Shown here: positions 5,353-50,981 of the stretch, piece by piece
How the letters are laid out: the number at the start of each line of letters is the position of its first letter
Numbering within the stretch: the stretch's first letter is position 1
Source: an uncultured delta proteobacterium
Lineage (GTDB): Bacteria > Myxococcota > Myxococcia > Myxococcales > Myxococcaceae
Assembly (NCBI GenBank): GCA_963776345.1
Contig: CAVZMH010000016.1
Span: forward strand, 224,001-288,000
Length of the DNA: 64,000 bases
Direction of reading: 5' to 3'
Program-made: the position numbers and the translations under genes
Notes under the pieces: model-generated
What the model saw: only the letters and a program-made list of their open reading frames with translations
Database searches by the model: none
What the model was told of the DNA's origin: nothing

Positions 5353-5399
5353 ATACGACCATCGTCCACTGTGGCCGCCTCCGAGCAGGGACTTACACT
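5353..5399 (+). promoter_or_regulatory. Putative activator box plus -10 element for the 5434 gene
   Basis: ATACGACCATCGTCCA (core 5357-5366), with TACACT starting 28 nt after the core end. Confidence 0.55.
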
Positions 5400-5433
5400 T
5401 ACAGCCTTGCTGACACCCGAGGGAGGTGCGCCC

Positions 5434-6843
5434 ATGGCTCGCAAGGAATCGTCTGCCCCGTCTTCGACCTGGGTGACTTGCACCGAGCTGCTGCTCGAGC
5501 TGGTCCGGCTCGACACTGCCTACGGCGACCTCTACCGCCAGCGCGCCCGCCAGCTCGCCGCCAAGGAGTTCTCGGCCTCGGACTTCAAGGCGCTGCAGAA
5601 CGCCGAGCAGGCCCTCCAGTCGCTCCCTGGAGACATCCGGCGGGCGATGGACGACGGCAAGTGGGAGCAGGTCAAGAAGCTGACCGACGAGCTCGGCGGC
5701 AAGCAGCGCTTCGTCCAGGAGCGTGGCTCGCTCCGCAAGTGCGGCGAGCGGCTGTACGAGGACGAGGCGATCCACGTCGACCCGTTCTCTCCGGGGTTCT
5801 ACTGGTACCACCGCCGCGAGGAGCGTTCCTTGCCGGGCCTCCGGGACGACGCGGTCAGCAAGCTGCAGCAGGCCGCCCGGATCGACCCGGAGTGGAAGCC
5901 GCTCTACGAGGATCGTGAGAAGTGTCTCAAGGCCGTGCGTCTGGCCGAGCCGTCGGCGAGCGCGTCCGCCGCCAAGGGCCGGGGTGAGATGGAGCAGCGG
6001 GCCCGCGAGGCACTCGCCTCCGGCAACCTCGAGGAGCTCCAGAAACTCGCCGGCAGCCTCGAGCAGGGAGGCGGCGGAGCGGCCGGACCGGGCACCGCCG
6101 AGGCGACGGAGGACGTGGAGCGGGAGCCGCTCCGGGCGCAGTTCACCCCCGAAACGCTGCAGAAGGCGAAGGCCCTGGGGCTCGAGCCCGAGCTTTTCGA
6201 GATCTCGAGCCTGCGCGCGAAGTCTCGCCCGCTTCTCCGCCACCTGTGGCACCCGGTCTTCTTCGAGGCGGAGGGCAACCTGGCGGGGGCCAGGGTCACC
6301 GCCGCACTGCCCAAGGACACCTCCGACGCACAGCGCGACCGCATCGTGATGTTCGTCACCCGGCCGGTGCTCAGCTCGGGCGGCGCGCGGTTCATCCCCC
6401 CGCTGGTGGATGAGGACATGCTGGTCGAGAGCTTCGAGGAGGGGCCGGCCGGCTCGGAGGTGGGGAAGAACGGGCTCGCCGAAGCCCTTGACCTGAATCG
6501 GCGCTGGGGGCTCCACCGGATGGAGATCGAGCGCACCCTGCAGAGCAAGGGGCCCGAGCTGGTGAAGTCGCTCGGGCTGGACCCCTGGAAGTACCGCTTG
6601 GTCTGCGTCCCGCCGGACGTCTTCGGCCCGCTCGGGCAGCGGCGCGGCTGGGGCAAGCAGGAGATCTGGACGCACCTCGACGGCTATCTCGCCACCCGCG
6701 AGCGCAAGCTCCTGGCCCTCGCCGGGGGCGACGTCCGCTACGGCGGCGTCATGGACATGGTGGGGGTCGGCATCGAGTACGACAGTGACCGTCTCCTGGT
6801 CCGCTTCGCCATCGTCGACCGGCGACGGATCCGGGCCTGGTGA
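5434..6843 (+). CDS. Hypothetical cytoplasmic protein (about 469 aa)
   Basis: GGAGG RBS before ATG 5434, host-like codon usage, helical N-terminal half, no recognisable motif. Confidence 0.8.
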   Translation: MARKESSAPSSTWVTCTELLLELVRLDTAYGDLYRQRARQLAAKEFSASDFKALQNAEQALQSLPGDIRRAMDDGKWEQVKKLTDELGGKQRFVQERGSLRKCGERLYEDEAIHVDPFSPGFYWYHRREERSLPGLRDDAVSKLQQAARIDPEWKPLYEDREKCLKAVRLAEPSASASAAKGRGEMEQRAREALASGNLEELQKLAGSLEQGGGGAAGPGTAEATEDVEREPLRAQFTPETLQKAKALGLEPELFEISSLRAKSRPLLRHLWHPVFFEAEGNLAGARVTAALPKDTSDAQRDRIVMFVTRPVLSSGGARFIPPLVDEDMLVESFEEGPAGSEVGKNGLAEALDLNRRWGLHRMEIERTLQSKGPELVKSLGLDPWKYRLVCVPPDVFGPLGQRRGWGKQEIWTHLDGYLATRERKLLALAGGDVRYGGVMDMVGVGIEYDSDRLLVRFAIVDRRRIRAW

Positions 6844-6850
6844 ACCGCGC

Positions 6851-8221: not shown

Positions 8222-8281
8222 GCCGTCACCCCCAGGAACCGCGGGCGATCCCTACTCGAAGCGCATCCGCGGAGAATCGTT

Positions 8282-8324
8282 GGACCTTGGTCTCATTGTC
8301 GCCCCCGCGTCCCGCTGAGACCCT
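8282..8324 (+). promoter_or_regulatory. Activator box overlapping -35 of the DUF4136 operon promoter
   Basis: GGACCTTGGTCTCATTG, identical at 22302(-) and 23344(+), followed by TTGTCG-N17-GACCCT. Confidence 0.7.
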
Positions 8325-8354: not shown

Positions 8355-8981
8355 ATGTCCCGTGTCGGGAAGAACTTCGCACCACCCATCCTAGGCCTAG
8401 GCCTGCTGCTTGCCGCCTGTCACCCCACTGGCGCCGAGTACGTCTCCGATCTCGACGTGGTGGCCACCACCCACGACGCGACCTTCGACTTCGCCACCCC
8501 GAGTACCTACTCGCGACCGGACCGGATCTACCTGATCAGCGGCGATCCGACCTCGACGCCTCCGGATCGGCTGAATCCTCAGCTCGAGCAGCTCATCCTG
8601 AACACGCTGGACAACGAGATGAATGCGCTCGGGTACACGCTGGTCAGCGTGGGCCAGACGCCAGATCTCGTCATCACCGCCGGGGCGCTGAAGGTGACCA
8701 ACGTCAGCTACTACTACGGCTACTGGTGCGGCTACTGGGCGTACTACTACCCCTGCTATCCGTACTATCCGCCGGTCGTCGGCGTCAGCACCTACACGGT
8801 GGGGACGCTGCTGATCGACATGGCGCCGTACTCCGCCACGCCGCCCGACAATCAGATCAAGGGCGTGTGGACGGCCGTCATCCGCGGGGTCCAGACCGGG
8901 AGCCAGTCCACCGACCAGACCCGGATCGTCAACGGCATCTCGCAGGCATTCATCCAGTCTCCGTACCTGGGGCGGCCATGA
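8355..8981 (+). CDS. DUF4136-family lipoprotein
   Basis: Lipobox LLAAC, FDFATPSTY, GY...PDL, Tyr/Trp-rich loop, YTVGTLLIDM, VWTA, AFIQSPYL. Confidence 0.8.
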   Translation: MSRVGKNFAPPILGLGLLLAACHPTGAEYVSDLDVVATTHDATFDFATPSTYSRPDRIYLISGDPTSTPPDRLNPQLEQLILNTLDNEMNALGYTLVSVGQTPDLVITAGALKVTNVSYYYGYWCGYWAYYYPCYPYYPPVVGVSTYTVGTLLIDMAPYSATPPDNQIKGVWTAVIRGVQTGSQSTDQTRIVNGISQAFIQSPYLGRP

Positions 8982-9593
8982 GAACGCACCGCACGCTGAT
9001 TCCCTTCGCCGCAGCTCCTCGTCCTGCTCTCGGCCTCGACGGCACGCGCCCAGCTCCCGCCGACGCTGGTGGGCCTCTCGTACCAGTTCTCGATCCCCAT
9101 CGGAGAGACCTACAACTACACGCCGCCGGTGAGCTGGCGGGGCGTCGGTCTCGACGTGGCGAGCTTCATCCGGCCTGACCTGGCGGTGGGGCTGGCCTTC
9201 GGGTGGAACGTCTTCCACGAGAACGTCACCGGCACCATCAACTTCAGGGGCACCGACGTCTACGGAAACCAGGACCGCACCCTGAACATCTGGCCCACGC
9301 TGGCCAACGCCCGGTGGTTCCCGAAGATCTCCAGCAACCGCGACATCCAGCCGTACATCGGGGCGAACATCGGCGGCTACATCATCGAGCGGTACTTCGC
9401 CGTGGGCCTGACCTCCGCCGTGGAGACGCACTACCACTTCGGTCTCGCTCCGGAGATCGGCGTCTTCTTCCAGAACCCGGTGGGCGCCGTCTTCCTCAAC
9501 GCCCGCTACAACATGGCCTTCGCCGCCGGCGGAGTGCCCTTCCAGCAGTTCCTCAGCATCAGCCTGGGCTACGCCTGGGAACACCAGCGCTAG
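8978..9593 (+). CDS. OmpW/OmpA-like 8-stranded outer-membrane beta-barrel protein (frameshift near 9015)
   Basis: MRTHRTLIPFAA joins LLVLLSASTARAQ after a one-base shift and completes a signal peptide. Alternating strands, PYIGANIGG, C-terminal ISLGYAW. Confidence 0.75.
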
Positions 9594-9612
9594 CTCCACG
9601 GGAGAAGAGAAC

Positions 9613-10165
9613 GTGCGCTCCATCAAGAACTTCATGCTGACCGCGGCGGCCGTGCTCGGCACCGCCGCCCTCGCGCAGGCCCCCGCGCCTGCACCCGCCC
9701 CGGCCCCCGCGGCGCCGGCGGCGGCCCCCACCCAGGACGCGGCGGCCTCCCTGCTGAAGGTCTACGTGTTCCCGGCCAACAACCAGACGCCGGACCTGCA
9801 GGCCAAGGACTCCAACGACTGCTACACCTGGGCCAAGCAGCAGACCGGGGTCGACCCGACCAATCCCACGGTGCCGGCGAAGGCCGACACCAGCCAGGCC
9901 GGAAAGGGCTCGGCAGTGAAGGGCGCCGCGAAGGGCGCGGCGGCGGGTGCGGCCATCGGGGCCATTGCCGGTGACACCGGCAAGGGTGCGGCGATCGGCG
10001 CCGACCGCGGGCGGCATGGGCGGCGTCGGCGGCAAGAAGCAGGCCCAGCAGCAGGCCGAGGCCCAGGCCAAGCAGCAGCAGCAGGCGGCAGTGAACCAGC
10101 AGATGGACGCCTTCAAGAAGGCGTACACCGCCTGCATGGAAGGAAAGAAGTACACCGTCAAGTAG
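9613..10165 (+). CDS. Exported glycine-zipper protein (frameshift near 10003)
   Basis: YVFPANNQT..QAKD..DCYTWAKQQTGVDP, GAAKGAAAGAAIGAIAGDTGKGAAIGA. It continues in the next frame to FKKAYTACMEGKKYTVK*. Confidence 0.8.
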
Positions 10166-10212
10166 CTGTGGCAAGGTCCGGAGAGGCACCGGACACCTGA
10201 CGGAGGCGGTAC

Positions 10213-10563
10213 ATGGATCGACGGGGAGCTCTTCGCTGGGCCGTGGTGGGAAGCTTGGTCGCGCTCTCCGCGCCACGCGCGGCGGAGGAGCCGAAGCGGA
10301 TCGACATCAAGAACCTCAGCTGCGAGGCGTTCCTCGCGCAGCCCGAGGACATCCGGCCGATGCTCGTCGCCTGGGTGCACGGGTACTCGCACGCCAGCGG
10401 CGAGAACTGGGTGCTCGACCCCGCCATGGCCCGCACCTTCGTGACCTCGGTCCAGGAGCGGTGCACCAAGGCGCCGAAGGCCAGCTTCCGGTATCAGGTC
10501 CTGGAGACCGCCAAGGAGCGGCAGGCGGAGGCGAAGAAGGCGGCCAAGGCCGAGAAGAAGTGA
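10213..10563 (+). CDS. HdeA/HdeB-family periplasmic acid-stress chaperone-like protein
   Basis: Signal peptide, LSCEAFL...RPMLVAWVHG, second Cys in ERCTKAP, small helical protein. Confidence 0.65.
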   Translation: MDRRGALRWAVVGSLVALSAPRAAEEPKRIDIKNLSCEAFLAQPEDIRPMLVAWVHGYSHASGENWVLDPAMARTFVTSVQERCTKAPKASFRYQVLETAKERQAEAKKAAKAEKK

Positions 10564-10668: not shown

Positions 10669-11488
10669 TCACTTGCCGAACTTGGAGCGCGAGGCCTTGG
10701 CGCGGATCCGTTCCACTTCTTTCTGGTCGACGTGCTTCCGGATCAGCGCCTGTACCGCGTAGCGAACCTGGCGATACTCATCGGCGCAGCCCTCGGCGCG
10801 CTCGTCCGGGAGCTTTCCCAGCTCCTTGGCGAAGGCGTAGCGCTTCGGGTCCGAGCCCCAGGCCAGGCAGAGCACGTTGTAGTACCGCTGGCGATCGATC
10901 CCATGCACGTCGGCGAAGTCGTCCTCGCCCGGCTTCCGGCCGGAGGAGTCCGTGTCGTACATGAAGGCGGTGGCGCGGAGCATTCGCTCGGCGAAGTCCC
11001 CGCCGAGCTGGATCGCGGCGTAGATCGCCACCTGGTCGGCGGCGTCCTCCTCTCGCCCAAGCACCGGAACGGCGAGGATGTTGAACACCGCGTGGGCGGT
11101 CTCGTGGAGAATGATGAACAGGAAGGGACCGATCACCGCCTGCTCCGGGGTGAGCTTGAAGCGCTCGGACTTCCCGGCGGCCTTCACGAAGTCGGCCGCC
11201 ATCTCGTAGCAGAAGGTGAGCACGTCCGTGTCACTGTCGTACCAGGCGTTGGACTCGCCGCAGCTTTCTCCCTTGAGGGTGACCGTCCTGGGGAGCTTGA
11301 GCGCCGACAGCATCTCCGCCGCGCCCTCGAGCATCGCGCCGCTCCTTCATCTTCGCCACCAGGGGAGCGAGCTCCGCGGTCTTGGCTTCCCCGTAGACGA
11401 CCTTGAACGAGGGCTTCTTGGCCGGTGAGGTCGCGCCTGCGCTCAGCAGCGCGGTCAGGAGAACCAGGGGAATGGTGCTCATCGACAT
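10669..11488 (-). CDS. DUF4344-family exported zinc metallopeptidase (frameshift near 11335)
   Basis: CGESNAWY, HETAH (HExxH), GREEDAADQ, FADVH, QRYYNVLCLAWG, RAEGC. The signal peptide lies in the upstream frame from 11488, which has a GAGGAG RBS. Confidence 0.8.
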
Positions 11489-11495
11489 GTGCTCC

Positions 11496-11912
11496 TCAGG
11501 GGTGAACGGCGGAGGAACGTCCGAGGGCGTGCATCACCGCGCCGATCAGGAGCGCCGGCTCGAACGGCTTCTGCAGGCACGGGACGTCGCCGAAGCCCCG
11601 GAGCCTGAGCGCTTCCCCGGCATCGATCCGGCCCGTGACGAAGATGGCGGGGAGCTGCTCCTTCCTGGCGCGTAGCCGTTCCAGCAGATCTGGGCCGCTC
11701 ATCCCCGGGAGCACCACGTCCACCACCAGGCAACTCGGCCGGAGCTCCTCGTAGCCGTGGAGCAGCTCCTCTGCGGTCGAGAACGACGCGACGCGGAGCC
11801 CGTCGGCGCGCAGCATCCGGCTCAGCGCTCTCCGGACGCCGGGGTCGTCATCGACGACCGCCACCGTCGGGCTCGGCAAGGGACGGGTCGAGACTCTCCG
11901 CGCCGCACACAT
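11496..11912 (-). CDS. Stand-alone response regulator receiver protein (FixJ-like REC)
   Basis: VAVVDDD, CLVVDVVLPGMSG, IFVTG, QKPF; no output domain. Confidence 0.85.
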   Translation of the reverse strand: MCAARRVSTRPLPSPTVAVVDDDPGVRRALSRMLRADGLRVASFSTAEELLHGYEELRPSCLVVDVVLPGMSGPDLLERLRARKEQLPAIFVTGRIDAGEALRLRGFGDVPCLQKPFEPALLIGAVMHALGRSSAVHP

Positions 11913-11942: not shown

Positions 11943-11989
11943 ACCCTAGGAACAGCTCGGACCGGGCTGCTATACGACGTTGGTCTCAT
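11943..11989 (-). promoter_or_regulatory. Activator box plus -10 for the REC-DUF4344 operon, between divergent genes
   Basis: Core GACGTTGGTC at 11976-11985. On the minus strand TAGGGT starts 28 nt after the core. Confidence 0.6.
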
Positions 11990-12008
11990 CCTCCGTCGGA
12001 CTCCTCGA

Positions 12009-13277
12009 ATGCCTTTCACCCTGATTGCCTTCGAGCAACCGGACCTCTTCGAGCAGCAGCTCTCCGAGCTGTCGGCGAGGTTCGTGTCGCTCCCGGCGGA
12101 GAAGGTGGACGGCGAGATTGACTGGGCGCTCCAGCTGCTGGTGCAGGCGTTGGGCATCGACAGGAGCAGCCTGGCCGAGCTGTCGGGGGACCAGCAGCGC
12201 ATCGAGGTTACCCACAGCCATTCCAACGACTCGACTCACCTGTTCGTCCAGGGAGACCTGGCTGCGGTCCTCCCCTGGTACGCGGCCAGGCTCCGCCAGG
12301 GCGAAATCCTGCGCTTCGACCGGCTTCCGGACGACCTTCCACCGGAGGCCAGCGCCGAACGGGAGTACTGCACTCGTGCAGGGTTACGCTCGCAGCTGAC
12401 CATTCCCTTCAGGGTGGGAGATCGCTTCCTCGGCGCGATCGGGTTCGCTTCCTTCCACCGGGAGGTCAACTGGTCGCCCCGCGTCATCCGCTCTCTGCGC
12501 CTGATCAGCGAGGTCTTCGCCAACGCCATCGCCAGGAAGGAGGCGGCGCACGCAGAGGCCCGGCTCCGGGAGCAGCTCGCGCACAGCGCCCGGGTGAATG
12601 CCGTGGGCGAGGTGGTGGCCTCCATCGCCCACGAGGTGAACCAGCCGCTCTTCGCCATCGTCAGCAACGCGCGGGCAGCCGGACAGCTGCTGGCCAGGGA
12701 GGTCCCGGACCTGGCTGAGATCGGAGCGGCGCTGGAAGACATCGTCCAGGATGCGAATCGGGCGAGCGCCGTCATCGCCCGCGTCCGGGGGTTTCTCCAG
12801 CAGAGACCCACCGAGCACCTGCCGATCGACGTGAGGACGGTGGTGGAGACGGTGGTGGCCTTTCTCGGCCCCGAGCTCGCGCGACGCCGGGTCAAGGTGG
12901 CGACGATCCTCGCCGAGGGCCTCCCTCCCATCCGGGGCGACGCCGTGCAGCTCCAGCAGGTCGTGGTCAATCTCCTGATCAACGGCGCCGATGCAATGGA
13001 GCGCCTGGATCCGAAGAAGCGGCGGATCGAGGTTCGGACCGAGCGCGACGGCGCCGAGCGAGTCCGCATCGACGTCGTGGACCACGGGCACGGCCTGGAC
13101 GACGCATCACGCCACCGTCTCTTCGAGGCCTTCTTCACCACCAAGCCCCAGGGGCTCGGCATGGGGCTCGCGATCTGCAAGTCCATCGTCGAGGCCCACG
13201 GTGGGCGGATCGCGCCGCTGGCGCAGCCTGGGCCGGGAACGACGATGCAGATCTGGCTCCCGGTCCATCGCGCTTGA
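12009..13277 (+). CDS. Cytoplasmic GAF-domain sensor histidine kinase
   Basis: GAF region, H-box SIAHEVNQPL, N-box QVVVNLLING, DHGHG, FFTTKPQGLGMGL; no TM helix. Confidence 0.9.
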   Translation: MPFTLIAFEQPDLFEQQLSELSARFVSLPAEKVDGEIDWALQLLVQALGIDRSSLAELSGDQQRIEVTHSHSNDSTHLFVQGDLAAVLPWYAARLRQGEILRFDRLPDDLPPEASAEREYCTRAGLRSQLTIPFRVGDRFLGAIGFASFHREVNWSPRVIRSLRLISEVFANAIARKEAAHAEARLREQLAHSARVNAVGEVVASIAHEVNQPLFAIVSNARAAGQLLAREVPDLAEIGAALEDIVQDANRASAVIARVRGFLQQRPTEHLPIDVRTVVETVVAFLGPELARRRVKVATILAEGLPPIRGDAVQLQQVVVNLLINGADAMERLDPKKRRIEVRTERDGAERVRIDVVDHGHGLDDASRHRLFEAFFTTKPQGLGMGLAICKSIVEAHGGRIAPLAQPGPGTTMQIWLPVHRA

Positions 13278-13399: not shown

Positions 13400-14071
13400 G
13401 TGGACATCCTGACTGATCTGCTTCCCTCCCCCGTTCCCGGTGCAGGCTCCTGGCCCGAAGTCTGGGTTCTGGATGATGACCCCGGGGTCCGTTCAGCGCT
13501 CGGACGGCTCCTGCGCTCGACGGCGCTCGCGGTCCAGACGTTCGGCTCGGCCGGCGAGTTGCTGCAGCAGCTCGAGCACCAGAGGCCACGCTGTCTGATC
13601 CTCGACCTCGCCCTTCCCGAGGTCACCGGCCTGGAGCTGCTGCACCTGCTCCAGTCGCGTGGCGAGGCCATCCCCGTGATCTTCGTCAGCGGCGAGGGAG
13701 ACGTGGGCAGCAGCGTGGAGGCGATGAAGGCAGGGGCCATCGACTTCCTGGAGAAGCCCGTGGACGCCGACGCCCTCCTCTCGGCCGTGATGCGTGCGCT
13801 GGCCCAGGAGGCGGAGTGGCGCCAGGCCCGGTCGACGATGGACGACGCCGCCCGGCTCCTCACCCGGCTGACCCCGCGCGAGCGGGAGGTCCTCTGTCAC
13901 GTGGCCAGGGGCAAGTCCAACAAGCGGATCGCCGCGGACCTCGGGACGAGCGAGAAGACCATCAAGGTCCACCGCGGGCGGGTGATGCACAAGCTCGGGG
14001 CCGGCTCCGTGGTCGACCTGGTGCACCTCGCCGAGCGATCGGGCGTCCTGCCGAGCGCCCTGCGCGCGTAG
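13400..14071 (+). CDS. FixJ/NodW/TodT-family response regulator (REC plus LuxR HTH)
   Basis: LDDD, ILDLALP, AMKAGAIDFLEKP, LTPREREV...NKRIAADLGTSEKTIKVHRGRVMHKL. Confidence 0.92.
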   Translation: MDILTDLLPSPVPGAGSWPEVWVLDDDPGVRSALGRLLRSTALAVQTFGSAGELLQQLEHQRPRCLILDLALPEVTGLELLHLLQSRGEAIPVIFVSGEGDVGSSVEAMKAGAIDFLEKPVDADALLSAVMRALAQEAEWRQARSTMDDAARLLTRLTPREREVLCHVARGKSNKRIAADLGTSEKTIKVHRGRVMHKLGAGSVVDLVHLAERSGVLPSALRA

Positions 14072-14168: not shown

Positions 14169-14188
14169 GCACCGACCGGGAGCGCGTC

Positions 14189-14232
14189 CGACCAAGATCC
14201 CAGTGACCTCTCCCGGGTTCCTCGCCTAGGGT
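14189..14232 (+). promoter_or_regulatory. Activator box plus -10 for the 14260 gene
   Basis: Core GACCAAGATC at 14190-14199, then GTGACC-N18-TAGGGT (-10 starts 28 nt after the core). Confidence 0.6.
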
Positions 14233-15620: not shown

Positions 15621-17066
15621 CTACCGCGGCTGATCCGCCGTGGGTTCGACAGGGGCCGGCGCCTCGGGCGGCGGGAGCTGCCAGCCGCCTCCGAGCGCCC
15701 GGTAAAGGGTGATGAACGCTGCCGTCCGCTGCGCGCGGACGGAGGTCAGGTTCAGCTCGGCCGGGAACAGGAGGTTCTGGGTATAGGTCACCTCGAGGTA
15801 GTTCGACACCCCGCCGTAGAACCGGTCCTCCGCCAGGCCCAGCGCTTCGGTGAGGCTCACCACCTGCTCCTCCCGCTGCTGGACGATGCCGTCAAGCCGC
15901 TGGACGTCATTCAGTCCGTCCGCCACCTCGCGAAAGGCGTTGAGCACCGTCTGCTCGTAGGTGTTCTTCGCCTCCTCCCACTGCGCGGAGGCGGCCTCCG
16001 CCTGCCCCCGCAGCGCGTCGCCCTGGAGGATGGGAGCGAGCCAGCTCGCGTTGCCTCCCACCCCCCAGACGAAGGACTTCGAGGGATCGAAGAGCTTGGT
16101 CAAGTCCGGAGAGGCGAGCCCGGCAAACGCGGTCAGGCTGAAGCGCGGGAAGAAGTCGGCCTTGGCTACCCCGATGCGGGCGTTGGCCGCGACCAGACGC
16201 TGCTCCACGGAGAGGACGTCGGGCCGGCGCTCGAGCAGCGTCGAGGGCAGGCCAGCCGGCACCGGCCCCGTGTCGTGGAGGCCGGGGACCACCTTCGACC
16301 GGGCGATGGGTCCGGGTGGGCGGCCCACCAGCAGCGACAGGAGGTTCTCCTGCCGCACGATGAGCCGTTCGGTGTCCTGGACCACCGCCTGGGCGTCGTG
16401 GACCTGGGCGCGCCCCGTGGTCACCGACAGCTTGTTCCCTGCCCCGCCCTGCAGCTGGTCGGTGTAGAGCTGCAGCGTGCGCTGGTAGTTCAGGACGGTG
16501 CGCCGGGCCACGTCGACCTGCGCATCGAGCTGCCGCAGCTGCACGTACGCCAGCGCGACATCGGCCACCAGGCTCACGGTGGCTGCGCGGCGCCCCTCCT
16601 CGGTGGCCAGGTACTCGGCGACCGATGCCTCGGTGCCACGGCGGATCCGGCCCCAGACGTCGATCTCCCAGGAGAGCTGGGCGTCGACCTCGAAGGCCGC
16701 GCCCGTCTTCGGGTCCTCGCTGGGGAAGGCCAGGTTTCCGCGCCCGTAGCTCGCCCCGGCATTGGCGCCCACCGCCGGGAGGATCTGCGCTTTCTGGATG
16801 CGGGCCAACGCCCGGGCCTGCTCCACCCGGGCCACCGCCGCGCGGAGGTCCCGGTTGTTCTGAACCGCCTCGCCGATGAGCGACTGCAGCTCCGGGTCCT
16901 TGAACACCGTCCACCACGGCAGGTCGGCGATGGTCGCAGTGTCCGTGGTGGGGGTCTGGTCCCGGTAGGCGGCCGGGGTCGGGACCACCGGTCGCTGGTA
17001 GTCCGGCCCCATCAGGCAGCTGGTGGTGGACAGCGCCAGGGTCACCGCGAGGAGCGCTCTCTTCAC
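15621..17066 (-). CDS. RND efflux outer-membrane lipoprotein (NodT/OprM family)
   Basis: Lipobox TTSC-LMGPDYQRP, WEIDVWGRIRR, PSTLLERRPDV, LYRALGGGW. Confidence 0.95.
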   Translation of the reverse strand: MKRALLAVTLALSTTSCLMGPDYQRPVVPTPAAYRDQTPTTDTATIADLPWWTVFKDPELQSLIGEAVQNNRDLRAAVARVEQARALARIQKAQILPAVGANAGASYGRGNLAFPSEDPKTGAAFEVDAQLSWEIDVWGRIRRGTEASVAEYLATEEGRRAATVSLVADVALAYVQLRQLDAQVDVARRTVLNYQRTLQLYTDQLQGGAGNKLSVTTGRAQVHDAQAVVQDTERLIVRQENLLSLLVGRPPGPIARSKVVPGLHDTGPVPAGLPSTLLERRPDVLSVEQRLVAANARIGVAKADFFPRFSLTAFAGLASPDLTKLFDPSKSFVWGVGGNASWLAPILQGDALRGQAEAASAQWEEAKNTYEQTVLNAFREVADGLNDVQRLDGIVQQREEQVVSLTEALGLAEDRFYGGVSNYLEVTYTQNLLFPAELNLTSVRAQRTAAFITLYRALGGGWQLPPPEAPAPVEPTADQPR

Positions 17067-20000
17067 GGCTCACCCTGAGCGACGGCGGTCGCCCCTCCTC
17101 CATGAGCCACGGTGGGCGTTGGCGCGGGACCCTTCTTCTCGCCCACGATCTTCCCCACCATCACGAAGAGCACCGGGATGATGAAGACGCCGAGTCCCGT
17201 CACCAGCGACATCCCGGCGATCACCGCCGTCCCGAGGATCCGCCGGGACGCCGCCCCGGCGCCGGCTGCCGTCCAGAGCGGCACGCAGCCGAGGATGAAG
17301 GCGAAGGAGGTCATGAGAATCGGCCGCAACCGGAGCCTGGCCCCCTCCAGCGCCGCCTCGACCAGCGGCTTGCCCTGGTCGTGCTGCATCTTGGCGAACT
17401 CGACGATCAGGATGGCGTTCTTCGCCGCCAGGCCGATCAGCATCACCAGGCCGATCTGCCCGTAGACGTCGAAGTCGAACCTGCGAACCATCAGCCCGAT
17501 GAACGCGCCCAGCACCGCGATCGGAGTGCTGAGGAGCACGCTGAACGGGAGCGACCAGCTCTCGTAGAGCGCGGCCAGGATGAGGAACACGAACACCAGG
17601 CTCATCCCGAAGACGGCCAGCGTCCCTCCCTCGGAGGCCTTCTGCTGGAACGAGAGGTTGGTCCAGGCGGTGCCGATCTCCGGAGGCAAGGTCTGCGCCG
17701 CCACCTCCTCGAAGGCCTTGAGCGCCTGACCGGAGCTGACTCCAGGAGCCACGCTCCCGATGACTTCGGCCGATCGAAAGAGGTTGAAGCGGACGGTGTA
17801 CTCGGGGCCGCTCACGTTCTTGACCGTGACCAGGGTCGAGAGGGGCACCATCTCACCCTTGCTGTTGCGGACGTAGAAGTTGCGGATGTCCTCCGCCTTG
17901 ATGCGCGACTCACCCTCGGACTGGAGGAAGACCTTCCACTGCCGGCCGAAGCGGGTGAAGTCGTTCACGTAGCTCCCGCCGAGGAAGGCCTGCATGGCCC
18001 CGTAGAGGTCCGTCAGCGCCACGCCCTGCTTCAGGACCTTGTCCTTGTCCACCTCGACGAAGATCTGCGGCACCGCGGGCGAGAAGTTGGCGGTCACCGC
18101 CTGGAACTCGGGGCGCTTCCGGGCCGCGGCCAGGAACTTGTTCACGTTCTCCGCCAGGAACTCGACCGACTTGCCACTCCGGTCCTGGATCATCATGTCC
18201 GCGCCGCCGGCGGTTCCGATGCCGGGAATGGCCGGAGGACCGAAGGCCAGGATGCGCGCTTCCGGAATCTGCGAGAAGGCGATGTTGAGCGCGCGGATGA
18301 TCCCCGCCGCCGATTCGTTCTCGTGCTTCCTCTCCGCCCACTCGTGGAAGGCGATGAAGACCGTCCCGGCGTAGCTCGCGGCGGTGCCGGTGAGGATGTT
18401 GTATCCGCTGATCACGGTGTAGCTCCGGATGCCCGGAGTCTTGGCCATGATCTCCTCGATCTTCTTCCCCACCTGCTTCGTGCGCTGGAGCGAGGCCGCA
18501 TCCGGCAGCTGGATGAAGGCGAGGGCGTAGCCCTGGTCCTCGTCGGGGACGAAGCCTGCGGGAATCCTCGAGCCGAAGAAGCCCGCCAGCACCGTTACGC
18601 CCCCGAGCAGCACCAAGGAGAGCACCATCTTCCGGACCATCCGCCCCGTGATGCTCACGTATCCGCCGGTCATCCGGTCGAACCAGGTGTTGAACTTGCC
18701 GCCCAGCCGCGCCACGAGACCCTGCTTCCCTTCCTCCTTGGGCTTGAGCAGCAGCGCCGAGAGCGCGGGGCTGAGGGTCAGGGCGTTGAACGCCGAGATG
18801 AGTACCGAGATGGCGATGGTGAGCGCGAACTGCTGGTACAGCCGGCCGGTGATGCCTCCGATGAAGGCCACCGGGATGAACACCGCGGAGAGGATGAGCG
18901 CGATGCCGATCACCGGACCCTGGACCTCGTGCATCGCCTTGAGTGTGGCCTCCTTCGGAGACAGCCCGTGGTGGATGTGTGACTCGACCGCCTCCACCAC
19001 CACGATCGCGTCGTCGACCACCAGACCGATGGCCAGGATGAGGCCGAACAGGGAGAGGGTGTTCAGCGAGAACCCCAGCATGGGGAACACCGCGAACGTG
19101 CCTACCAGCGACACCGGGACCGCGAGCAGCGGGATCAGCGTCGCCCTCCAGCTCTGGAGGAAGATGAAGACCACGATGATCACCAGGACCATCGCCTCGA
19201 GCAGCGTCTTCACGATCTCGTCCATGCCCTCGGTGATGGGCAGGGTCGTGTCGAGCGCGACCTCGTAGTCCAGGCCCTGGGGGAAGTCCTTCTTCAGCCC
19301 TGCCATCGTGGCCTTGATTCCGTCACCGACCTTGAGAGCGTTCGACCCGGGCGTCTGGTAGATGGAGATGACGCCGCCGGCCTTGCCGTTGTAGCGCCCA
19401 TCTTGCTGGTAGTTCAGCGAGCCCAGCTCGATGCGGGCCACGTCCTTGAGCCGCACCTGCGAGCCGTCCGGATTGGCGCGGACGACGATCTCTCCGAACT
19501 CCTCGGGGGTCACCAGCCGGCCCTGGGCGCGGACGGCGTAGGTGAACTTCTGTCCCTCCGGCGCCGGCTCGCCGCCGATCTGCCCGGCCGGGTTCACCAC
19601 GTTCTGCGTCTTGATGGCGGACTGGATCTCGTTGATGGTCAGATTGAGGCGGGTGAGCGTGTCCGGCTTCACCCAGATCCGCATCGCGTAGTCCGACGAG
19701 CCGAAGAGCACCACGTCGCCGACGCCCGGAACGCGCTTCAGCGCGTCGATGACGTTGATGGTGGCGTAGTTCCCGAGGAACCGCGCGTCGTAGCGATTGT
19801 CGGGCGAGAACAGCGAGACGATGATCAGCGGGAACGGCAGCTTCTTCTTGATCGTGACGCCGTAGTTCTTGACCTCCTGGGGCAGCGTCGCCTGCGCCTG
19901 GCTGTACCGGTTCTGGACCAGGACGTTGTCGATGTCGACGTTGGTCCCGAGCGCGAAGGTGACGATCTGGGTCAGCGTGCCGTCGTTGGCGTTGGTGCTC

Positions 20001-20239
20001 TGGAGGTAGAGCATGTTGTCCACGCCGTTCATCTGCTGCTCGATGGGCGTGGCCACCGACTGCTCGATGGTCAGCGCGTCGGCGCCGGTGTACGTCGTGG
20101 TCAGCTGGATCTGCGGCGGGACGATCTCCGGGAACTGCGCGATGGGCAGCCGCAGCGCGGCGACCGCGCCGCCGATCACCGTCACGATCGCGATGACGAT
20201 CGCGGTGATGGGATTCTTGACGAAGAAGGCGGAGATCAC
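17063..20239 (-). CDS. RND efflux permease (HAE1/AcrB family)
   Basis: AIGLVVDDAIVVVE, GLAAKNAILIVEFA, RLRPILMTSFAF; 1058 aa; atypical or uncertain start codon. Confidence 0.95.
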   Translation of the reverse strand: MISAFFVKNPITAIVIAIVTVIGGAVAALRLPIAQFPEIVPPQIQLTTTYTGADALTIEQSVATPIEQQMNGVDNMLYLQSTNANDGTLTQIVTFALGTNVDIDNVLVQNRYSQAQATLPQEVKNYGVTIKKKLPFPLIIVSLFSPDNRYDARFLGNYATINVIDALKRVPGVGDVVLFGSSDYAMRIWVKPDTLTRLNLTINEIQSAIKTQNVVNPAGQIGGEPAPEGQKFTYAVRAQGRLVTPEEFGEIVVRANPDGSQVRLKDVARIELGSLNYQQDGRYNGKAGGVISIYQTPGSNALKVGDGIKATMAGLKKDFPQGLDYEVALDTTLPITEGMDEIVKTLLEAMVLVIIVVFIFLQSWRATLIPLLAVPVSLVGTFAVFPMLGFSLNTLSLFGLILAIGLVVDDAIVVVEAVESHIHHGLSPKEATLKAMHEVQGPVIGIALILSAVFIPVAFIGGITGRLYQQFALTIAISVLISAFNALTLSPALSALLLKPKEEGKQGLVARLGGKFNTWFDRMTGGYVSITGRMVRKMVLSLVLLGGVTVLAGFFGSRIPAGFVPDEDQGYALAFIQLPDAASLQRTKQVGKKIEEIMAKTPGIRSYTVISGYNILTGTAASYAGTVFIAFHEWAERKHENESAAGIIRALNIAFSQIPEARILAFGPPAIPGIGTAGGADMMIQDRSGKSVEFLAENVNKFLAAARKRPEFQAVTANFSPAVPQIFVEVDKDKVLKQGVALTDLYGAMQAFLGGSYVNDFTRFGRQWKVFLQSEGESRIKAEDIRNFYVRNSKGEMVPLSTLVTVKNVSGPEYTVRFNLFRSAEVIGSVAPGVSSGQALKAFEEVAAQTLPPEIGTAWTNLSFQQKASEGGTLAVFGMSLVFVFLILAALYESWSLPFSVLLSTPIAVLGAFIGLMVRRFDFDVYGQIGLVMLIGLAAKNAILIVEFAKMQHDQGKPLVEAALEGARLRLRPILMTSFAFILGCVPLWTAAGAGAASRRILGTAVIAGMSLVTGLGVFIIPVLFVMVGKIVGEKKGPAPTPTVAHGGGATAVAQGEP

Positions 20240-20242
20240 GGG

Positions 20243-21430
20243 TCAGCCTCCCGCGTCCGGCGCCGGGGCGCTCCCCGCCTTGCCGGCGAAGGCCGGGTCC
20301 GGCTTCGCGGTGACCTTCAGCCCCTCCGAGACCTTCTGGAGCCCCTCGGTGATCACCCGCTCACCGGCGTTGACTCCCTTGGTGACCGCCCAGAGCTGGC
20401 CCGCCCGGGGACCCATGGTCACGGTCCGGATCTGCACCGTGTCCTCGGGGGTCACCACCGCCACCGTGTAGGAGCCCTGCAGCTCCTTCACCGCGGCCTC
20501 GGGCACCACCACCAGCGCCTTGCCGGTCTCCAGCTGAGGGATGCGAACCCGACCGTACTGCCCGGGCCGGAGGATTCGCTCCGGGTTCGGGAACACGGTC
20601 TGAACTTGAAGGGTGCCCGTCCCCTTCTGCACCTCACGGTTCAGGGCGATGAACCAGCCCTTGTGCTTGTAGACCGACCCGTCCGCCAGGACGAGAGCGA
20701 GCACCTGGCGCTCCGGGCCGGCATCGAGCGGGTCCAGCGTCTCGAGCGCCGCGGCCCGGCTGGCCACGCGCAGGTAATCCGCCTCGCTGATAGGAAAGGT
20801 GACCCGCATCGGGTCGAGCTGCGACACGGTGGTGAGCAGCGTGGGCTCGCCCTGCCCGACCAGGTTGCCGACGCGGACCAGCGGGGTCCCCGCCACGCCA
20901 TCCACGGGCGAGCTGATGCGGGTGTACGAGAGGTTCAGCTGGGCCTCGTCGACCGCGGCTCTGGCCGAGTCGACTGTCGCGGCGGCCGCGCGCTGGGACG
21001 CCTCCGCGTTGTCCAGGTCCTGCTGGCTGACCGCCTGCTTCGCGGCGAGTGGCCGGTAACGGTCCGCGGTCACCTTGGCCTGGCCAAGCGTGGCCTGCGC
21101 GCGGGCAAGCATAGCCTTCGCCTTGGCCAGGTCGTTCTGGTACTCGGCCGGGTCGATGGTGAAGAGGAGCTGGCCCTTCTTCACGAACGCCCCGTCGGCG
21201 TAGTCCTGGGTCTTGAGAAAGCCCTTCACCCGCGCCCGGATCTCGGCGTTCACGTATCCGTCGATGGTTCCCACCATCTCGGTCGAGAGGCTCAGGTCCT
21301 GCTGGACTGCCGGGGCCACCAGCACCGTGGGCGGAGGAAGCGGTGGCGGCGGCTTCTTGCAGCCCACCGCCACCAGCAACGCCCCGAGGGCCCCCGCGAT
21401 GACCGACCCAGTGACGCCTGTCCGCGCCAT
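20243..21430 (-). CDS. RND efflux membrane-fusion protein (AcrA family)
   Basis: Lipobox AVGC, EIRARVKG, LNLSYTRISSPVDG, LRPGQYGRV; GGAGGGAG RBS. Confidence 0.93.
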   Translation of the reverse strand: MARTGVTGSVIAGALGALLVAVGCKKPPPPLPPPTVLVAPAVQQDLSLSTEMVGTIDGYVNAEIRARVKGFLKTQDYADGAFVKKGQLLFTIDPAEYQNDLAKAKAMLARAQATLGQAKVTADRYRPLAAKQAVSQQDLDNAEASQRAAAATVDSARAAVDEAQLNLSYTRISSPVDGVAGTPLVRVGNLVGQGEPTLLTTVSQLDPMRVTFPISEADYLRVASRAAALETLDPLDAGPERQVLALVLADGSVYKHKGWFIALNREVQKGTGTLQVQTVFPNPERILRPGQYGRVRIPQLETGKALVVVPEAAVKELQGSYTVAVVTPEDTVQIRTVTMGPRAGQLWAVTKGVNAGERVITEGLQKVSEGLKVTAKPDPAFAGKAGSAPAPDAGG

Positions 21431-22274: not shown

Positions 22275-22320
22275 AGTCCATGCGTTTCCAGGCGATTCCG
22301 GCAATGAGACCAAGGTCCCA
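22275..22320 (-). promoter_or_regulatory. Activator box upstream of the OmpA/MotB gene and probably the RND operon
   Basis: The reverse complement reads TGGGACCTTGGTCTCATTGCCG, the same 17-mer as at 8282 and 23344. Confidence 0.7.
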
Positions 22321-22365
22321 GGCCCCCACGGTTCAATGGGTTGCGGGCCCCGCCCGGACGACGGC

Positions 22366-48421: not shown

Positions 48422-48483
48422 GGCCCTCCCATACCACGCATCCAGGTGGCACTCCCCGCGGCGAGCGCTAGTCTGGGCCTCCG

Positions 48484-50955
48484 ATGCGGTTCCTCCTCCT
48501 CGTCGCCCTTCTCCAGTGGCCGCTCGGGTCAGAGGATTCTTCGCCGGCTGCCGCGCCCGCCCCTGTGCCCGAGGTGCGCGATGCCGGCCCCGCGGCAATC
48601 TTGCTCCCGGAGGTTCTCCGCTCGGCCGAGAAGGCCCACGGCGCCCTCAAGTCGATGGCGAAGCCCCTCGCGGACCGCCAGCTGATCGAGGAGGTCCAGA
48701 AGGAGCTCCCCACGCTGGTGTCGAGCATCGATCCACTGACCGGAAAGGGTCCGCTGTCCCCGAAACAGGACCTCACCGATGTCCGCCCGGTGCTGCAGCG
48801 GGCGGACGATACGCTCTCCACGTGGGACGAGGGGTTCGAGTCGGCCGTCCAGGCCGTCTACGAGAACAGTCGAGAGCTCCGGCGCATGGACGAGGTCTGG
48901 TCGCTCACCGAGGCCCAGGCCCGTGAAGATGGAGCCCCCACCGCGGTCCTGGAGCGCATCGCCGCGCTGCGCGCCTCCATCGATGCGACGGCCGCACAGG
49001 CGCGGGCTCAGCTCGGTCAGCTGCTGACCACGCAGAACCAGGTGGCCACCGTCCGGATGCGCATCGCCGACGCGCTGGCCAGCGTGAAGGAGGCGGAGGC
49101 GCTCCAGGCCGAGCAGCTCTTCGAGGTGGAGAGCGTCCCGTTCTGGAAGCTGCTCTCCCGCCCCACGCAGGTGGAGAAGGTCCGGCAGCAGATCCTCCAC
49201 ACGCTCCGCACCCACGCCACCGCGCTGAAGGACTTCGTCCGGGGCCAGAGCACCCGAGTCCTGCTACTCCTCGGCTTCCTGGTGGTCCTCACCATCGCTC
49301 TCTGGCGGGGACGGGAGCGGCTCGAAGCGGAGAGGGCCAGCGATCCCAGCATCTCGACCGTGGTCGATGTGCTCCGGCACCCGTTCGCGACGGCCGTGCT
49401 CCTGGCCCTCACCGCCGCCATGGTCTGGCTCCAGCCGCGACCGCTGGTCGTCTCCCAGGTCCTCCTCCTCGGGATGCTGGCTGCCTTCTTTGCCGCAGCG
49501 CAGAGCCTCATCCCGGCCCGGGCCCGGCGCTCGGCCTACGCCCTGGGGATCATCATCGCCATCCACACCGTCTCCTCCCTCGCGCCCGACCTGTCGCTGC
49601 TACGGCGGGTCATCATGCTGGCCGTCAGCCTCTCGGCGACCGCGGTCCTGGTGGGGGAGCTTCGCCGGCGCGGCTGGGAGGCGGAGATTGCGTCGAAGCG
49701 CTGGCGGTCGCTCTTCCGCGCGGCACTGATCGCGGGGACGATCCTTCTCCTCGGCTCGCTGGTGGCCAACCTCGTCGGGAACATGGCGCTCGCACGGTTG
49801 CTGGCCAGCGGCACGCTGTACAGCGGGGCGCTGCTGCTCCTGCTCTCCGGAGTCCTTCAGGTCATCCAGGGCCTCTGGGTGATCGTGCTCCGCAGCCCCA
49901 GGGTGAGTCGCAGGCCACTGTTCGCCGACAACGTCGAGCTGTTCCAGCAGCGCGGAACGAACTACCTCCGCTGGGCCGTCGGCCTGCTCTGGCTCTTCGC
50001 GACCGTTCGGCTCTTCCGCATCGATACGCCGATCTGGGAGGCGGTGCAGCGGATCATCTCGTGGCGTGCGCGGACGGGCTCGCTCGACCTGTCGCTCGGC
50101 GACGTGCTGGCATTCGCCATCACCCTGTGGATTGCGGTGCTGCTGGGGCGGCTGGTGGGGTTCGTCCTCAGCGAGGGCCTCAAGACCCGCGGCCTGGGCC
50201 GCGGAGTGCACACCGCCATCTCCCGGACCGCGACCTACGCCGTGGTCGCCGTGGGCACGGTGATCGCCGTCCTCGCCTCGGGCACGGAGCTGACCCGGCT
50301 CACGGTCCTCATCGGCACCCTCGGGGTGGGCATCGGCTTCGGCCTGCAGGACGTGGTGAACAACTTCGTCTCCGGACTGATCCTCCTCTATGAGCGCCCG
50401 GTTCAGGTGGGCGACGTCATCGAGGTGGGGGACGTGCAGGGAACCGTGCGGCGGATCGGCATCCGCTCCAGCACGGTGGCCACCGACCAGGGCTCCGAGG
50501 TGGTGGTCCCCAACGCGCACCTCATCTCCAACGAGGTGACCAACTGGACGCTCTCCGACAAACGGCGCCGGACCGACATCGACGTGGGTGTTGCCGAGGC
50601 GGCCTCGCCCGAGCGCGTCCGGGAGCTGCTGCTCCAGGTCGCCCTGGCCCATCCCGAGGTGCTGAAAGCTCCCGAGCCGCTCGCGCTCTTCGCCGGCTTC
50701 GGAAACAGCGCGCTGAACTTCCAGCTCCAGATCTGGACGCCGGAGGAGATCCGTGACCGGGTGGCGAGCGAGCTGCGCACCGCGATCGGTCGGGTCCTGG
50801 GCGAGGCCGGCATTCACTTCCCGCAGAACGAGGTGCACCTGGTCTCGGTCGCTCCGTCCCTGCCCGAGCTGCTCGGCGGCGCGGGGAGCGCCGGAGCGGG
50901 CCTCGGGCTCCGGCAAGAAGGAATGACCCGGGGGATTGGCCGAAAGTCGTACTGA
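48484..50955 (+). CDS. Large MscS/MscK-like mechanosensitive channel
   Basis: Periplasmic coiled coil, many TMs, GVGIGFGLQDVVNNFVSGLILLYERPVQVGD, VVVPN..LISNEVTNWT. Confidence 0.92.
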   Translation: MRFLLLVALLQWPLGSEDSSPAAAPAPVPEVRDAGPAAILLPEVLRSAEKAHGALKSMAKPLADRQLIEEVQKELPTLVSSIDPLTGKGPLSPKQDLTDVRPVLQRADDTLSTWDEGFESAVQAVYENSRELRRMDEVWSLTEAQAREDGAPTAVLERIAALRASIDATAAQARAQLGQLLTTQNQVATVRMRIADALASVKEAEALQAEQLFEVESVPFWKLLSRPTQVEKVRQQILHTLRTHATALKDFVRGQSTRVLLLLGFLVVLTIALWRGRERLEAERASDPSISTVVDVLRHPFATAVLLALTAAMVWLQPRPLVVSQVLLLGMLAAFFAAAQSLIPARARRSAYALGIIIAIHTVSSLAPDLSLLRRVIMLAVSLSATAVLVGELRRRGWEAEIASKRWRSLFRAALIAGTILLLGSLVANLVGNMALARLLASGTLYSGALLLLLSGVLQVIQGLWVIVLRSPRVSRRPLFADNVELFQQRGTNYLRWAVGLLWLFATVRLFRIDTPIWEAVQRIISWRARTGSLDLSLGDVLAFAITLWIAVLLGRLVGFVLSEGLKTRGLGRGVHTAISRTATYAVVAVGTVIAVLASGTELTRLTVLIGTLGVGIGFGLQDVVNNFVSGLILLYERPVQVGDVIEVGDVQGTVRRIGIRSSTVATDQGSEVVVPNAHLISNEVTNWTLSDKRRRTDIDVGVAEAASPERVRELLLQVALAHPEVLKAPEPLALFAGFGNSALNFQLQIWTPEEIRDRVASELRTAIGRVLGEAGIHFPQNEVHLVSVAPSLPELLGGAGSAGAGLGLRQEGMTRGIGRKSY

Positions 50956-50981
50956 GAGTCTGCCGATCCGGTACCTAAGGT
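50938..50981 (+). promoter_or_regulatory. Degenerate activator box plus -10 for the DUF502 gene
   Basis: Core GCCGAAAGTC at 50939-50948; TAAGGT starts 28 nt after the core. Confidence 0.45.

What the first reader, a model, noticed from the sequence alone, without database searches (positions are those of the whole stretch)
5353..50981. A recurring operator box with fixed promoter geometry points to an uncharacterised envelope-stress regulon
Seen: the 17-mer GGACCTTGGTCTCATTG occurs identically at 8282(+), 22302-22318(-) and 23344(+). Variants of its near-palindromic core GACCWWGGTC lie at 5357 (GACCATCGTC), 11976 (GACGTTGGTC), 14190 (GACCAAGATC) and 50939 (GCCGAAAGTC), with a weaker one at 63933(-). 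In four cases a TAnnnT hexamer starts exactly 28 nt after the core (TACACT 5394, TAGGGT 11948(-), TAGGGT 14227, TAAGGT 50976). In two more, a GAnnnT preceded by TG starts 27 nt after it. Each box is about 50-70 nt from a start codon. Established: an activator centred near -44 beside a poor -35 is class II geometry. FixJ-family StyR/TodT bind palindromes with an ACCATGGT-like core (recalled, not checked). Inference: one regulator co-activates the DUF4136/OMP/Gly-zipper genes, REC-metallopeptidase, an OMP, the OmpA lipoprotein (probably with the RND operon), the DszB-like sulfur module, DUF502 and an unknown protein.
Basis: partly seen in the sequence, partly recalled or inferred. Interest (0 to 1): 0.85.

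Follow-up and report, generated by a model that had tools for sequence, protein, structure and literature searches.

The report
Operator of a FixJ-type regulator
A short DNA palindrome in front of several genes in this uncultured soil-type myxobacterium is real and conserved, and is likely the docking site from which a neighbouring two-component regulator would switch on a set of exported, transport and stress-survival genes, an ordinary kind of gene switch that recurs in many bacterial phyla.

Summary
The box is real. The 17-mer occurs three times in the window and four times in the 5.1-Mb genome, all within 24 kb. A -10-like hexamer follows after 26-27 nt, so the box would be centred at -43.5/-44.5 (class II geometry). 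Its likely binder is the StyR/FixJ-type regulator at 13400. Box and regulator co-occur in 11 of 12 congeners. Its recognition helix nearly equals that of EL222, whose published consensus the 17-mers match exactly. One helix residue covaries with the base at +/-5. The commonest target across phyla is a stand-alone receiver gene (FixT-like, feedback inferred). 'Envelope stress' is not supported as the signal: targets are export-rich, but the kinase is soluble, and genome-wide targets include acid-survival, sulfur and osmotic genes. Binding, start sites and signal are untested. This scan found the same kind of box and regulator before on other DNA (at least eight notes). I found no paper on the regulon. 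Verdict: new member of a known kind.

The parts
5351..5372 (+). operator box (core 5357-5366) upstream of an unknown 469-aa protein (5434-6843); -10-like TACACT at 5394-5399
   Evidence: rank 17 genome-wide; box present in 3 of 3 full-length congener orthologues, scores 11-17
8277..8298 (+). operator box (core 8283-8292); extended -10-like TG-a-GACCCT at 8319-8324
   Evidence: GACCTTGGTCTCATTGT invariant in 6 of 6 aligned promoters
8355..10563 (+). predicted target operon: DUF4136 lipoprotein, beta-barrel-like protein, Gly-zipper protein, HdeA-family protein
   Evidence: Pfam; operon inferred from spacing
10669..11912 (-). predicted target unit: stand-alone receiver protein (11496-11912, acidic pocket DDD, D65, K115) and DUF4344 putative metallopeptidase (10669-11334)
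11943..11991 (-). autoregulatory box (core 11976-11985) with -10-like TAGGGT at 11948-11943, between the divergent receiver and kinase genes; 23 nt before the kinase ATG
   Evidence: box and hexamer conserved at fixed spacing with variable spacer in 10 of 10 aligned sequences
12009..13277 (+). soluble GAF-HisKA-HATPase sensor kinase; invariant GAF His69
13400..14071 (+). StyR/FixJ-type response regulator, recognition helix SEKTIKVHRGRVM; predicted binder of the box
14184..14232 (+). weak box (core 14190-14199) with TAGGGT at 14227, upstream of beta-barrel-like gene 14260-14883
   Evidence: rank 103; a strong box lies upstream of the one congener orthologue found
15621..21430 (-). RND efflux operon (MFP, AcrB-type, OEP); co-regulation inferred only
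   Evidence: congeners carry a separate degenerate box 62-65 nt upstream of the MFP gene, decayed here
21517..22257 (-). OmpA/MotB-like lipoprotein, predicted target
22302..22323 (-). operator box (core 22308-22317), 50 nt before the OmpA-like ATG; only a weak -10 (TGGACT)
   Evidence: invariant in 7 of 7 aligned promoters
23339..23386 (+). operator box (core 23345-23354) with extended -10-like TG-a-GAAGGT at 23381-23386
   Evidence: 85% alike over 39 nt to the 8282 promoter
23416..28793 (+). predicted target operon: DszB-like protein, CoA-disulfide reductase-rhodanese, membrane protein, SulP transporter
   Evidence: no orthologue in the congener loci fetched
50933..50981 (+). operator box (core 50939-50948, inside the last codons of mscS) with TAAGGT at 50976, upstream of DUF502 gene 51004-51654
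   Evidence: rank 22
63933..63942 (-). unconfirmed candidate site
   Evidence: rank 701, no -10 at the expected offset

Best explanation
The repeated palindrome is a conserved promoter element that is likely the binding site of the StyR/FixJ-type response regulator encoded at 13400-14071, which would activate these promoters from about -44 once the adjacent soluble GAF kinase phosphorylates it. Shown: the motif AT-N-R-GACC-WW-GGTC-Y-N-AT, its intergenic position, its conservation, a -10-like hexamer 26-27 nt downstream, and co-occurrence with regulators bearing the EKT[IV]KxHR helix. Inferred: a phosphorylated dimer binds the 7-2-7-like site overlapping the -35 region and recruits sigma-70-type RNA polymerase (class II). 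It would switch on about 20-30 units: lipoproteins, beta-barrels, transporters, sulfur-scavenging and acid-survival genes. It would also switch on a stand-alone receiver that probably damps the kinase, as FixT does. The input is more likely a cytoplasmic cue read by the GAF domain (acid or low-oxygen metabolite, my odds about 0.35-0.4) than envelope damage (about 0.15).
For: Motif: 27 of 28 sites scoring >=13 with an independently trained matrix are intergenic, against 14.7% intergenic DNA; 10 of the 28 lie in C16:220-315 kb, 0.5 expected. De novo, GACC-N2-GGTC is the top dyad in intergenic DNA of 61 non-myxobacterial regulator loci (22 observed, 2.7 expected). Geometry: nAnnnT at offset 26 in 24 and at offset 27 in 12 of 51 gene-facing sites in other phyla, background 0.057 per offset; NarL activating sites lie at -40 to -49 and -38 to -47 (PMC4549865, passages). 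Binder: regulator and pattern occur in the same 11 of 12 congeners; of 18 other-genus genomes none has the regulator at E<=1e-30 and one has the pattern. The box lies near 27 of 31 non-myxobacterial regulators with Lys at helix position 2, against 1 of 11 hydrophobic, 0 of 2 with Glu replacing the second Lys, and 3 of 16 with R/E/Q. The +/-5 base is G in 19 of 24 half-sites beside Lys regulators and 1 of 16 beside others. G116, found by its boxes alone, has an EKTVKAHR regulator 1.9 kb away. The best PDB match of the DNA-binding domain is EL222 (helix SEKTVKMHRG), whose consensus RGNCYWWRGNCY (PMC10521638, passages) the three 17-mers match with 0 mismatches. The genome has no LOV motif and 13400 is its only intact EKT[IV]KxHR regulator.
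Against: No binding, start-site or expression data. Loci L051-L130 were selected by a helix-derived pattern, so they are biased to this family. The hydrophobic-helix group is a single clade, so the covariation rests on a few independent events. The -10 signal is weaker in this genome (2 at offset 26 and 6 at 27, of 27 sites) and also appears in 14 and 8 of 95 orientations with no gene called. The 22308 promoter lacks a recognisable -10. One genome with a Lys helix (G038) had 0 matches to the strict pattern, and L196, with Arg at position 2, has G-type sites nearby. A paralogue on C9 is frameshifted, but aqpZ is frameshifted too, so that break may be an assembly error and a second binder may exist. 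The signal is inferred from target lists only.
Confidence: 0.82

Rival explanations
1. The box is an operator, but it is bound by another LuxR/NarL-family protein of the genome (20 GerE-domain matches), with 13400 only a neighbour or a target.
For: The genome holds 20 GerE matches. The core resembles the DosR box (PMC5999986, passages), bound by a NarL-type protein. Other NarL-type regulators were not tested for co-occurrence.
Against: A regex over six frames found only KxHR-type helices in 70 of 80 loci, another type in 2 and none in 8. Helix residue and +/-5 base covary. The helix matches EL222 and its sites.
Confidence: 0.08
2. The regulon is specifically an envelope-stress response (Cpx/Rcs/sigma-E-like).
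For: 14 of 25 first genes have an N-terminal hydrophobic stretch against 24% genome-wide. Targets include lipoproteins, beta-barrels, RND parts and MscL; some homologous kinases have MASE1 or periplasmic domains.
Against: The local kinase has no membrane segment (maximum 19-residue hydropathy 1.1). No DegP, DsbA or Psp-type gene is among the 25 first genes listed (family expectations recalled). Cytoplasmic targets are present: pyruvate carboxylase, DszB-like protein, molybdopterin oxidoreductase.
Confidence: 0.15
3. The box is mainly a repressor site or a promoter element of an alternative sigma factor, not an activator site.
For: At 11976 the box is 23 nt before the kinase ATG and could repress that promoter. 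A fixed spacing to a -10 is also what a sigma -35 element gives.
Against: The element is a palindrome, a 26-27 nt spacer is too long for a -35/-10 pair, and no sigma-70 consensus promoter was found in 8000-24700. An EL222 site overlapping -35 activates in E. coli (PMC5001607, passages).
Confidence: 0.07
4. The copies are remnants of local duplication or a small repeat, without regulatory function.
For: All four exact 17-mers lie within 24 kb, and 8282 and 23344 share 39 nt at 85%.
Against: The box is invariant while flanks diverge in orthologous promoters. The same motif arises de novo in other phyla with the same spacing.
Confidence: 0.03

Closest known systems
EL222 (Erythrobacter litoralis LOV-HTH) and its RGNCYWWRGNCY sites
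   Same: Best PDB match to the DNA-binding domain (E 6.5e-13, helix SEKTVKMHRG against SEKTIKVHRG). The three 17-mers match the consensus exactly, and 21 of 28 genome sites have at most 1 mismatch. Activates from a site overlapping -35.
   Different: The input here is a receiver domain with a kinase, not a LOV domain. The box has extra conserved AT...AT flanks. Targets differ.
StyS/StyR (Pseudomonas fluorescens ST) and TodS/TodT
   Same: Best full-length PDB match (1yio, E 1.3e-48); the activating site STY2 lies about -40 (PMC2442086, abstract and passages).
   Different: The StyR helix has Val where this one has Lys (AEVTVKVHRH). It controls aromatic catabolism. The STY2 sequence could not be checked here.
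FixL/FixJ with FixT feedback (Caulobacter, rhizobia)
   Same: FixJ-family regulator with a co-regulated stand-alone receiver; FixT is a negative-feedback inhibitor of FixL (PMC7078487, abstract).
   Different: Below the NCBIfam FixJ cut-off (183 against 255 bits); FixJ helix is PRTIEVYRA. The kinase has GAF, not PAS. The receiver has no conserved four-Cys pattern in the alignment.
DosS/DosR (DevR) and the Dev box of Mycobacterium tuberculosis
   Same: GGAC-N4-GTCC-type core (TTGGGGACTAAAGTCCCTAA); helix lysines K179 and K182 align with EKTIK (PMC5999986, passages); GAF kinase.
   Different: Distant regulator (E 2.6e-10); N183 is Val here; flanks differ; no USP-type genes among the targets scanned.
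NarL 7-2-7 class II promoters (napF, yeaR)
   Same: 7-2-7 layout and position (-40 to -49 and -38 to -47; PMC4549865, passages).
   Different: Different heptamer sequence and helix; nitrate-respiration regulon.

Membership tests
FixJ/StyR subfamily response regulator (13400 gene) | REC domain plus LuxR-type HTH with intact phospho-acceptor residues | tested here: met
   PF00072 and PF00196; DDD, D69, S97, K119 present; StyR and FixJ are the top PDB hits
FixJ proper (FixLJ oxygen system) | NCBIfam FixJ cut-off, TIEVYR-type helix, PAS-heme kinase | tested here: not met
   183 against 255 bits; helix differs; kinase has GAF
EL222-type recognition | EKTVK-x-HRG helix and RGNCYWWRGNCY site | tested here: met
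EL222 (LOV-HTH) protein | LOV domain | tested here: not met
   no NCRFLQ-type motif in six frames of the genome (motif recalled)
StyR/TodT box | published STY2/TodT site sequence | tested here: inconclusive
   sequence not found in the papers available
Class II activator site | palindrome centred near -41 to -45 relative to a -10 element | tested here: met
   26-27 nt spacer to nAnnnT; position computed from the hexamer, not from mapped starts
Class II activator site | binding and activation in vitro or in vivo | not testable with these tools
   needs EMSA, start-site mapping and reporters
DosR regulon | DosR orthologue with K179/K182/N183 and Dev box flanks | tested here: not met
   only the two lysines are shared; distant PDB match
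FixT-like feedback receiver (11496-11912) | stand-alone receiver transcribed under control of the cognate regulator | tested here: met
   conserved box and -10; 12 of 57 scanned targets in other phyla are stand-alone receivers; control itself inferred
FixT-like feedback receiver (11496-11912) | inhibits the kinase; Fe-S-binding Cys motif | tested here: inconclusive
   no conserved Cys motif; inhibition untested
Envelope-stress regulon (Cpx/Rcs/sigma-E type) | membrane or periplasmic sensor and chaperone/protease targets | tested here: not met
   soluble kinase; no such first gene among 25 targets except HdeA within an operon

The most novel reading that the evidence does not exclude
A mobile, cross-phylum stress regulon built on one regulator subfamily: interchangeable sensors (GAF, MASE1, PAS, periplasmic binding domains) feed an EL222-like DNA-binding domain that reads the same operator in Myxococcota, Rokubacteria, Verrucomicrobiota, Acidobacteriota, Omnitrophota, Eisenbacteria, Planctomycetota and Pseudomonadota. 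It has a built-in FixT-like brake and a one-residue recognition code (Lys reads G, Glu reads C, Ile/Leu/Gln/Arg go with T or A at +/-5). It would give a shared acid or low-oxygen survival context to many uncharacterised families (DUF4136, DUF4344, DUF3300, DUF3313, DUF1254, DUF502).
Probability: 0.4. Interest if true: 0.62.

Novelty: new member of a known kind. Interest (0 to 1): 0.42.

Why it matters
The switch itself is conventional. Its value is as a handle: one searchable operator groups many unknown lipoproteins, beta-barrels and transporters of uncultured soil bacteria into a single regulon, and predicts start sites that can be tested. The helix-to-base covariation offers a testable recognition rule for StyR/EL222-type DNA-binding domains, and natural variants of the EL222 site used in optogenetics.

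Tried and rejected
No RNA holder was listed for window 8100-14900; this says nothing on expression. Literature: five searches for the box, the regulator family or the DUF set gave no paper on this regulon; one search listed two unrelated papers and one paper noting DUF3300/DUF2950 co-localisation (PMC4653623, passage). The library lacks most subscription journals, and supplements were not read. A search for AspT/AspD acid resistance gave one off-topic listing, so that role is recalled knowledge. A strict box-plus-TAnnnT pattern found 0 of 6 genomes, including this one: too strict. The idea that Arg in HRxR defines binders was dropped because G116 has HRAAVM with two perfect boxes; Lys at helix position 2 fits better. 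In a 91-genome order sample, single 1-mismatch sites (6 genomes) did not exceed about 30 control hits, so single sites are not evidence. A CTGA-N10-TCAG dyad proved to be mostly a repeat element in two Acidobacteriota loci. The kinase model (pLDDT 84.9) and fold search returned kinase cores only and did not identify the GAF ligand; the GAF region had no PDB sequence match. The Atlas search for the 5434 protein gave only TPR-like leads under 0.9. No complex prediction was run. Gene calls came from my own simple codon-model callers, so some starts are off.
Full report
Setting. The window is G000:C16:224001-288000 of a 5.1-Mb, about 69% GC genome. Most of the closest homologues of its regulator are in Myxococcaceae metagenome-assembled genomes. 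I called genes with my own codon model (4534 genes, 14.7% intergenic).

Observation. The 17-mer is at the three stated places, against 0.11 expected. A fourth exact copy lies just left of the window, so all four genome copies fall within 24 kb. The 10-nt core alone is weak evidence: 12 of 44 copies are intergenic, against 7 of 7 for the core plus TCA. To avoid circularity I built a matrix only from intergenic DNA of 61 non-myxobacterial loci around homologous regulators. There, GACC-N2-GGTC was the top spaced palindrome without any seed (22 observed, 2.7 expected). Applied to this genome the matrix gives 28 sites scoring 13 or more, 27 of them intergenic; the exception is 50939, in the last codons of mscS. 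Ten of the 28 sites lie in C16:220-315 kb, where 0.5 are expected.

Conservation and geometry. In orthologous promoters the box stays fixed while flanks drift: receiver/kinase interval, 10 sequences; OmpA-like gene, 7; DUF4136 gene, 6. In one search the TAGGGT hexamer is conserved at fixed distance across a variable spacer. Among gene-facing sites 35-130 nt from a start, nAnnnT begins after 26 nt in 24 and after 27 nt in 12 of 51 sites in other phyla (background 0.057 per offset). The figures are 11 and 13 of 63 in congeners and 2 and 6 of 27 in this genome. Orientations with no called gene also show 14 and 8 of 95, probably missed or distant genes. Taking the hexamer's first base as -12 puts the box centre at -43.5 or -44.5. 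NarL activating sites at napF and yeaR lie at -40 to -49 and -38 to -47 (PMC4549865, passages), and StyR's STY2 lies near -40 (PMC2442086, abstract and passages).

Which protein binds. The 13400 gene encodes a REC plus LuxR-HTH protein closest to StyR (E 1.3e-48) and FixJ, below the FixJ cut-off. It and the pattern GACCWWGGTCYCAT occur in the same 11 of 12 congeners; among 18 other-genus genomes none has the regulator at E<=1e-30 and one has the pattern; the reversed control gave 1 hit in 31 genomes. These kin are not independent. Near homologues in other phyla a matrix seeded from this genome found 60 sites against a control mean of 6.4 (maximum 22). Sites occur near 27 of 31 regulators with Lys at helix position 2, 1 of 11 with a hydrophobic residue, 0 of 2 with Glu for the second Lys and 3 of 16 with R/E/Q; one locus gave no helix. 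The hydrophobic group is one clade on the tree, so this is a few events, not dozens. With the +/-5 to +/-7 columns neutralised, 20 of 40 non-myxobacterial receiver promoters scored 9 or more and the rest were dropped. In those, the +/-5 base was G in 19 of 24 half-sites for Lys regulators and 1 of 16 for others, with C in 4 of 4 for Glu. Whole-genome counts agree: 6, 2, 0, 15 and 6 sites in five Lys-type genomes, against 1, 0, 0, 0 and 2 in five divergent ones. In a 61-genome family sample only two genomes had 2 or more sites, both with helix matches; five other helix-positive genomes had none. In a 91-genome order sample G116 had two perfect boxes and no pattern hit; fetching it revealed an EKTVKAHR regulator 1.9 kb away, with kinase and stand-alone receiver arranged around a box as in the window. 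The DNA-binding domain's best PDB match is EL222. EL222's consensus is RGNCYWWRGNCY (PMC10521638, passages); the three 17-mers match it exactly, and an EL222 site overlapping -35 activates transcription (PMC5001607, passages). DosR uses the equivalent lysines on a GGAC-N4-GTCC core (PMC5999986, passages). The genome has no LOV motif. Its only other EKT[IV]KxHR helix, on C9, is in a frameshifted gene, though aqpZ is also frameshifted, so assembly error is possible.

The regulon. In the window: an unknown 469-aa protein; DUF4136, barrel, Gly-zipper and HdeA; receiver and DUF4344; a barrel; an OmpA-like lipoprotein; a DszB-like, CoA-disulfide reductase and SulP module; and DUF502. Elsewhere in the genome, sites precede glutaminase/asparaginase with DcaP, two Asp:Ala antiporters with an AspD-like aminotransferase (score 12.8), sulfatases, MscL/LysM (11.5), a transglycosylase-associated protein, a second OmpA-like gene, a molybdopterin oxidoreductase, CorA, an M13 peptidase and pyruvate carboxylase. 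In other phyla I scanned 57 of 75 box-adjacent genes: 12 are stand-alone receivers, and others include kinases, RND parts, sulfatases, DUF1254, DUF3300, DUF3313, DUF4136, PPK2, MscS, carbonic anhydrase and a Na+/H+ exchanger. A regulator-induced stand-alone receiver recalls FixT, a feedback inhibitor of FixL (PMC7078487, abstract); that role is inferred here.

Signal. First genes are export-rich (14 of 25 against 1090 of 4534, crude test), but the kinase is soluble, with a GAF domain carrying an invariant His69. Distant relatives of this GAF are annotated as FhlA-like activators. Structure search did not name a ligand. HdeA, glutaminase/asparaginase and aspartate decarboxylation with antiport are acid-survival functions (recalled). 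I therefore favour a cytoplasmic acid or low-oxygen cue (about 0.35-0.4) over envelope damage (about 0.15). Homologous systems use other sensors, so the input may vary by lineage.

Novelty. Mechanistically this is a conventional class II operator of a StyR/FixJ/EL222-type regulator. Five literature searches found no description of the regulon, within a library that lacks most subscription journals. Earlier unchecked notes of this scan report the same kind of box and regulator in other genomes; they are not independent support, and one of them named EL222 before I tested it. Verdict: new member of a known kind, interest 0.42.

Noticed in passing
window 8282-8320 and 23344-23382: The two promoters are 85% alike over 39 nt (box, spacer, extended -10). 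The DszB-like module had no orthologue in the congener loci fetched, so it may have joined the regulon by promoter copying.
   Followed up: partly
window 14089-14123 and 14893-14927: An identical 35-nt hairpin-like direct repeat flanks the beta-barrel-like gene 14260-14883, which was found in only one congener locus.
   Followed up: no
window 22366-23092 (-): The aquaporin Z gene changes frame near 22970 in this assembly; pseudogene or assembly error.
   Followed up: partly
G000:C9:63518-64109 (L169): A paralogue of the 13400 regulator with a near-identical recognition helix is frameshifted, next to an HdeD/DUF308 gene.
   Followed up: partly
G000:C16:223105 and 223126 (L160): Two box cores 21 nt apart between divergent genes just left of the window; a similar pair lies 24 nt apart in L188.
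   Followed up: no
G000:C22:66555 (L166): A GACCTAGGTCCCAT box 180 nt upstream of pyruvate carboxylase; the same 14-mer occurs once in several congeners, neighbours not checked.
   Followed up: no
window 23416-24579: The DszB-like protein keeps the Cys, His and Arg that align with DszB C27, H60 and R70 (catalytic role recalled) and shows no signal peptide.
   Followed up: partly
G039:C91 (L187-L191): Eleven of that genome's 15 box matches lie on one 109-kb contig with two EKT[IV]KIHR regulators: an island like this window.
   Followed up: partly
L094 11396-12799; L099 1705-5810: A repeated CCTGAGGCGTRAGCCTCAGG palindrome, REP-like, in two Acidobacteriota loci.
   Followed up: no
L197 9055: In cultured Microvirga lotononidis a regulator with Ile at helix position 2 has an A/T-variant box with CATACT downstream; a possible bench model for the recognition rule.
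   Followed up: partly
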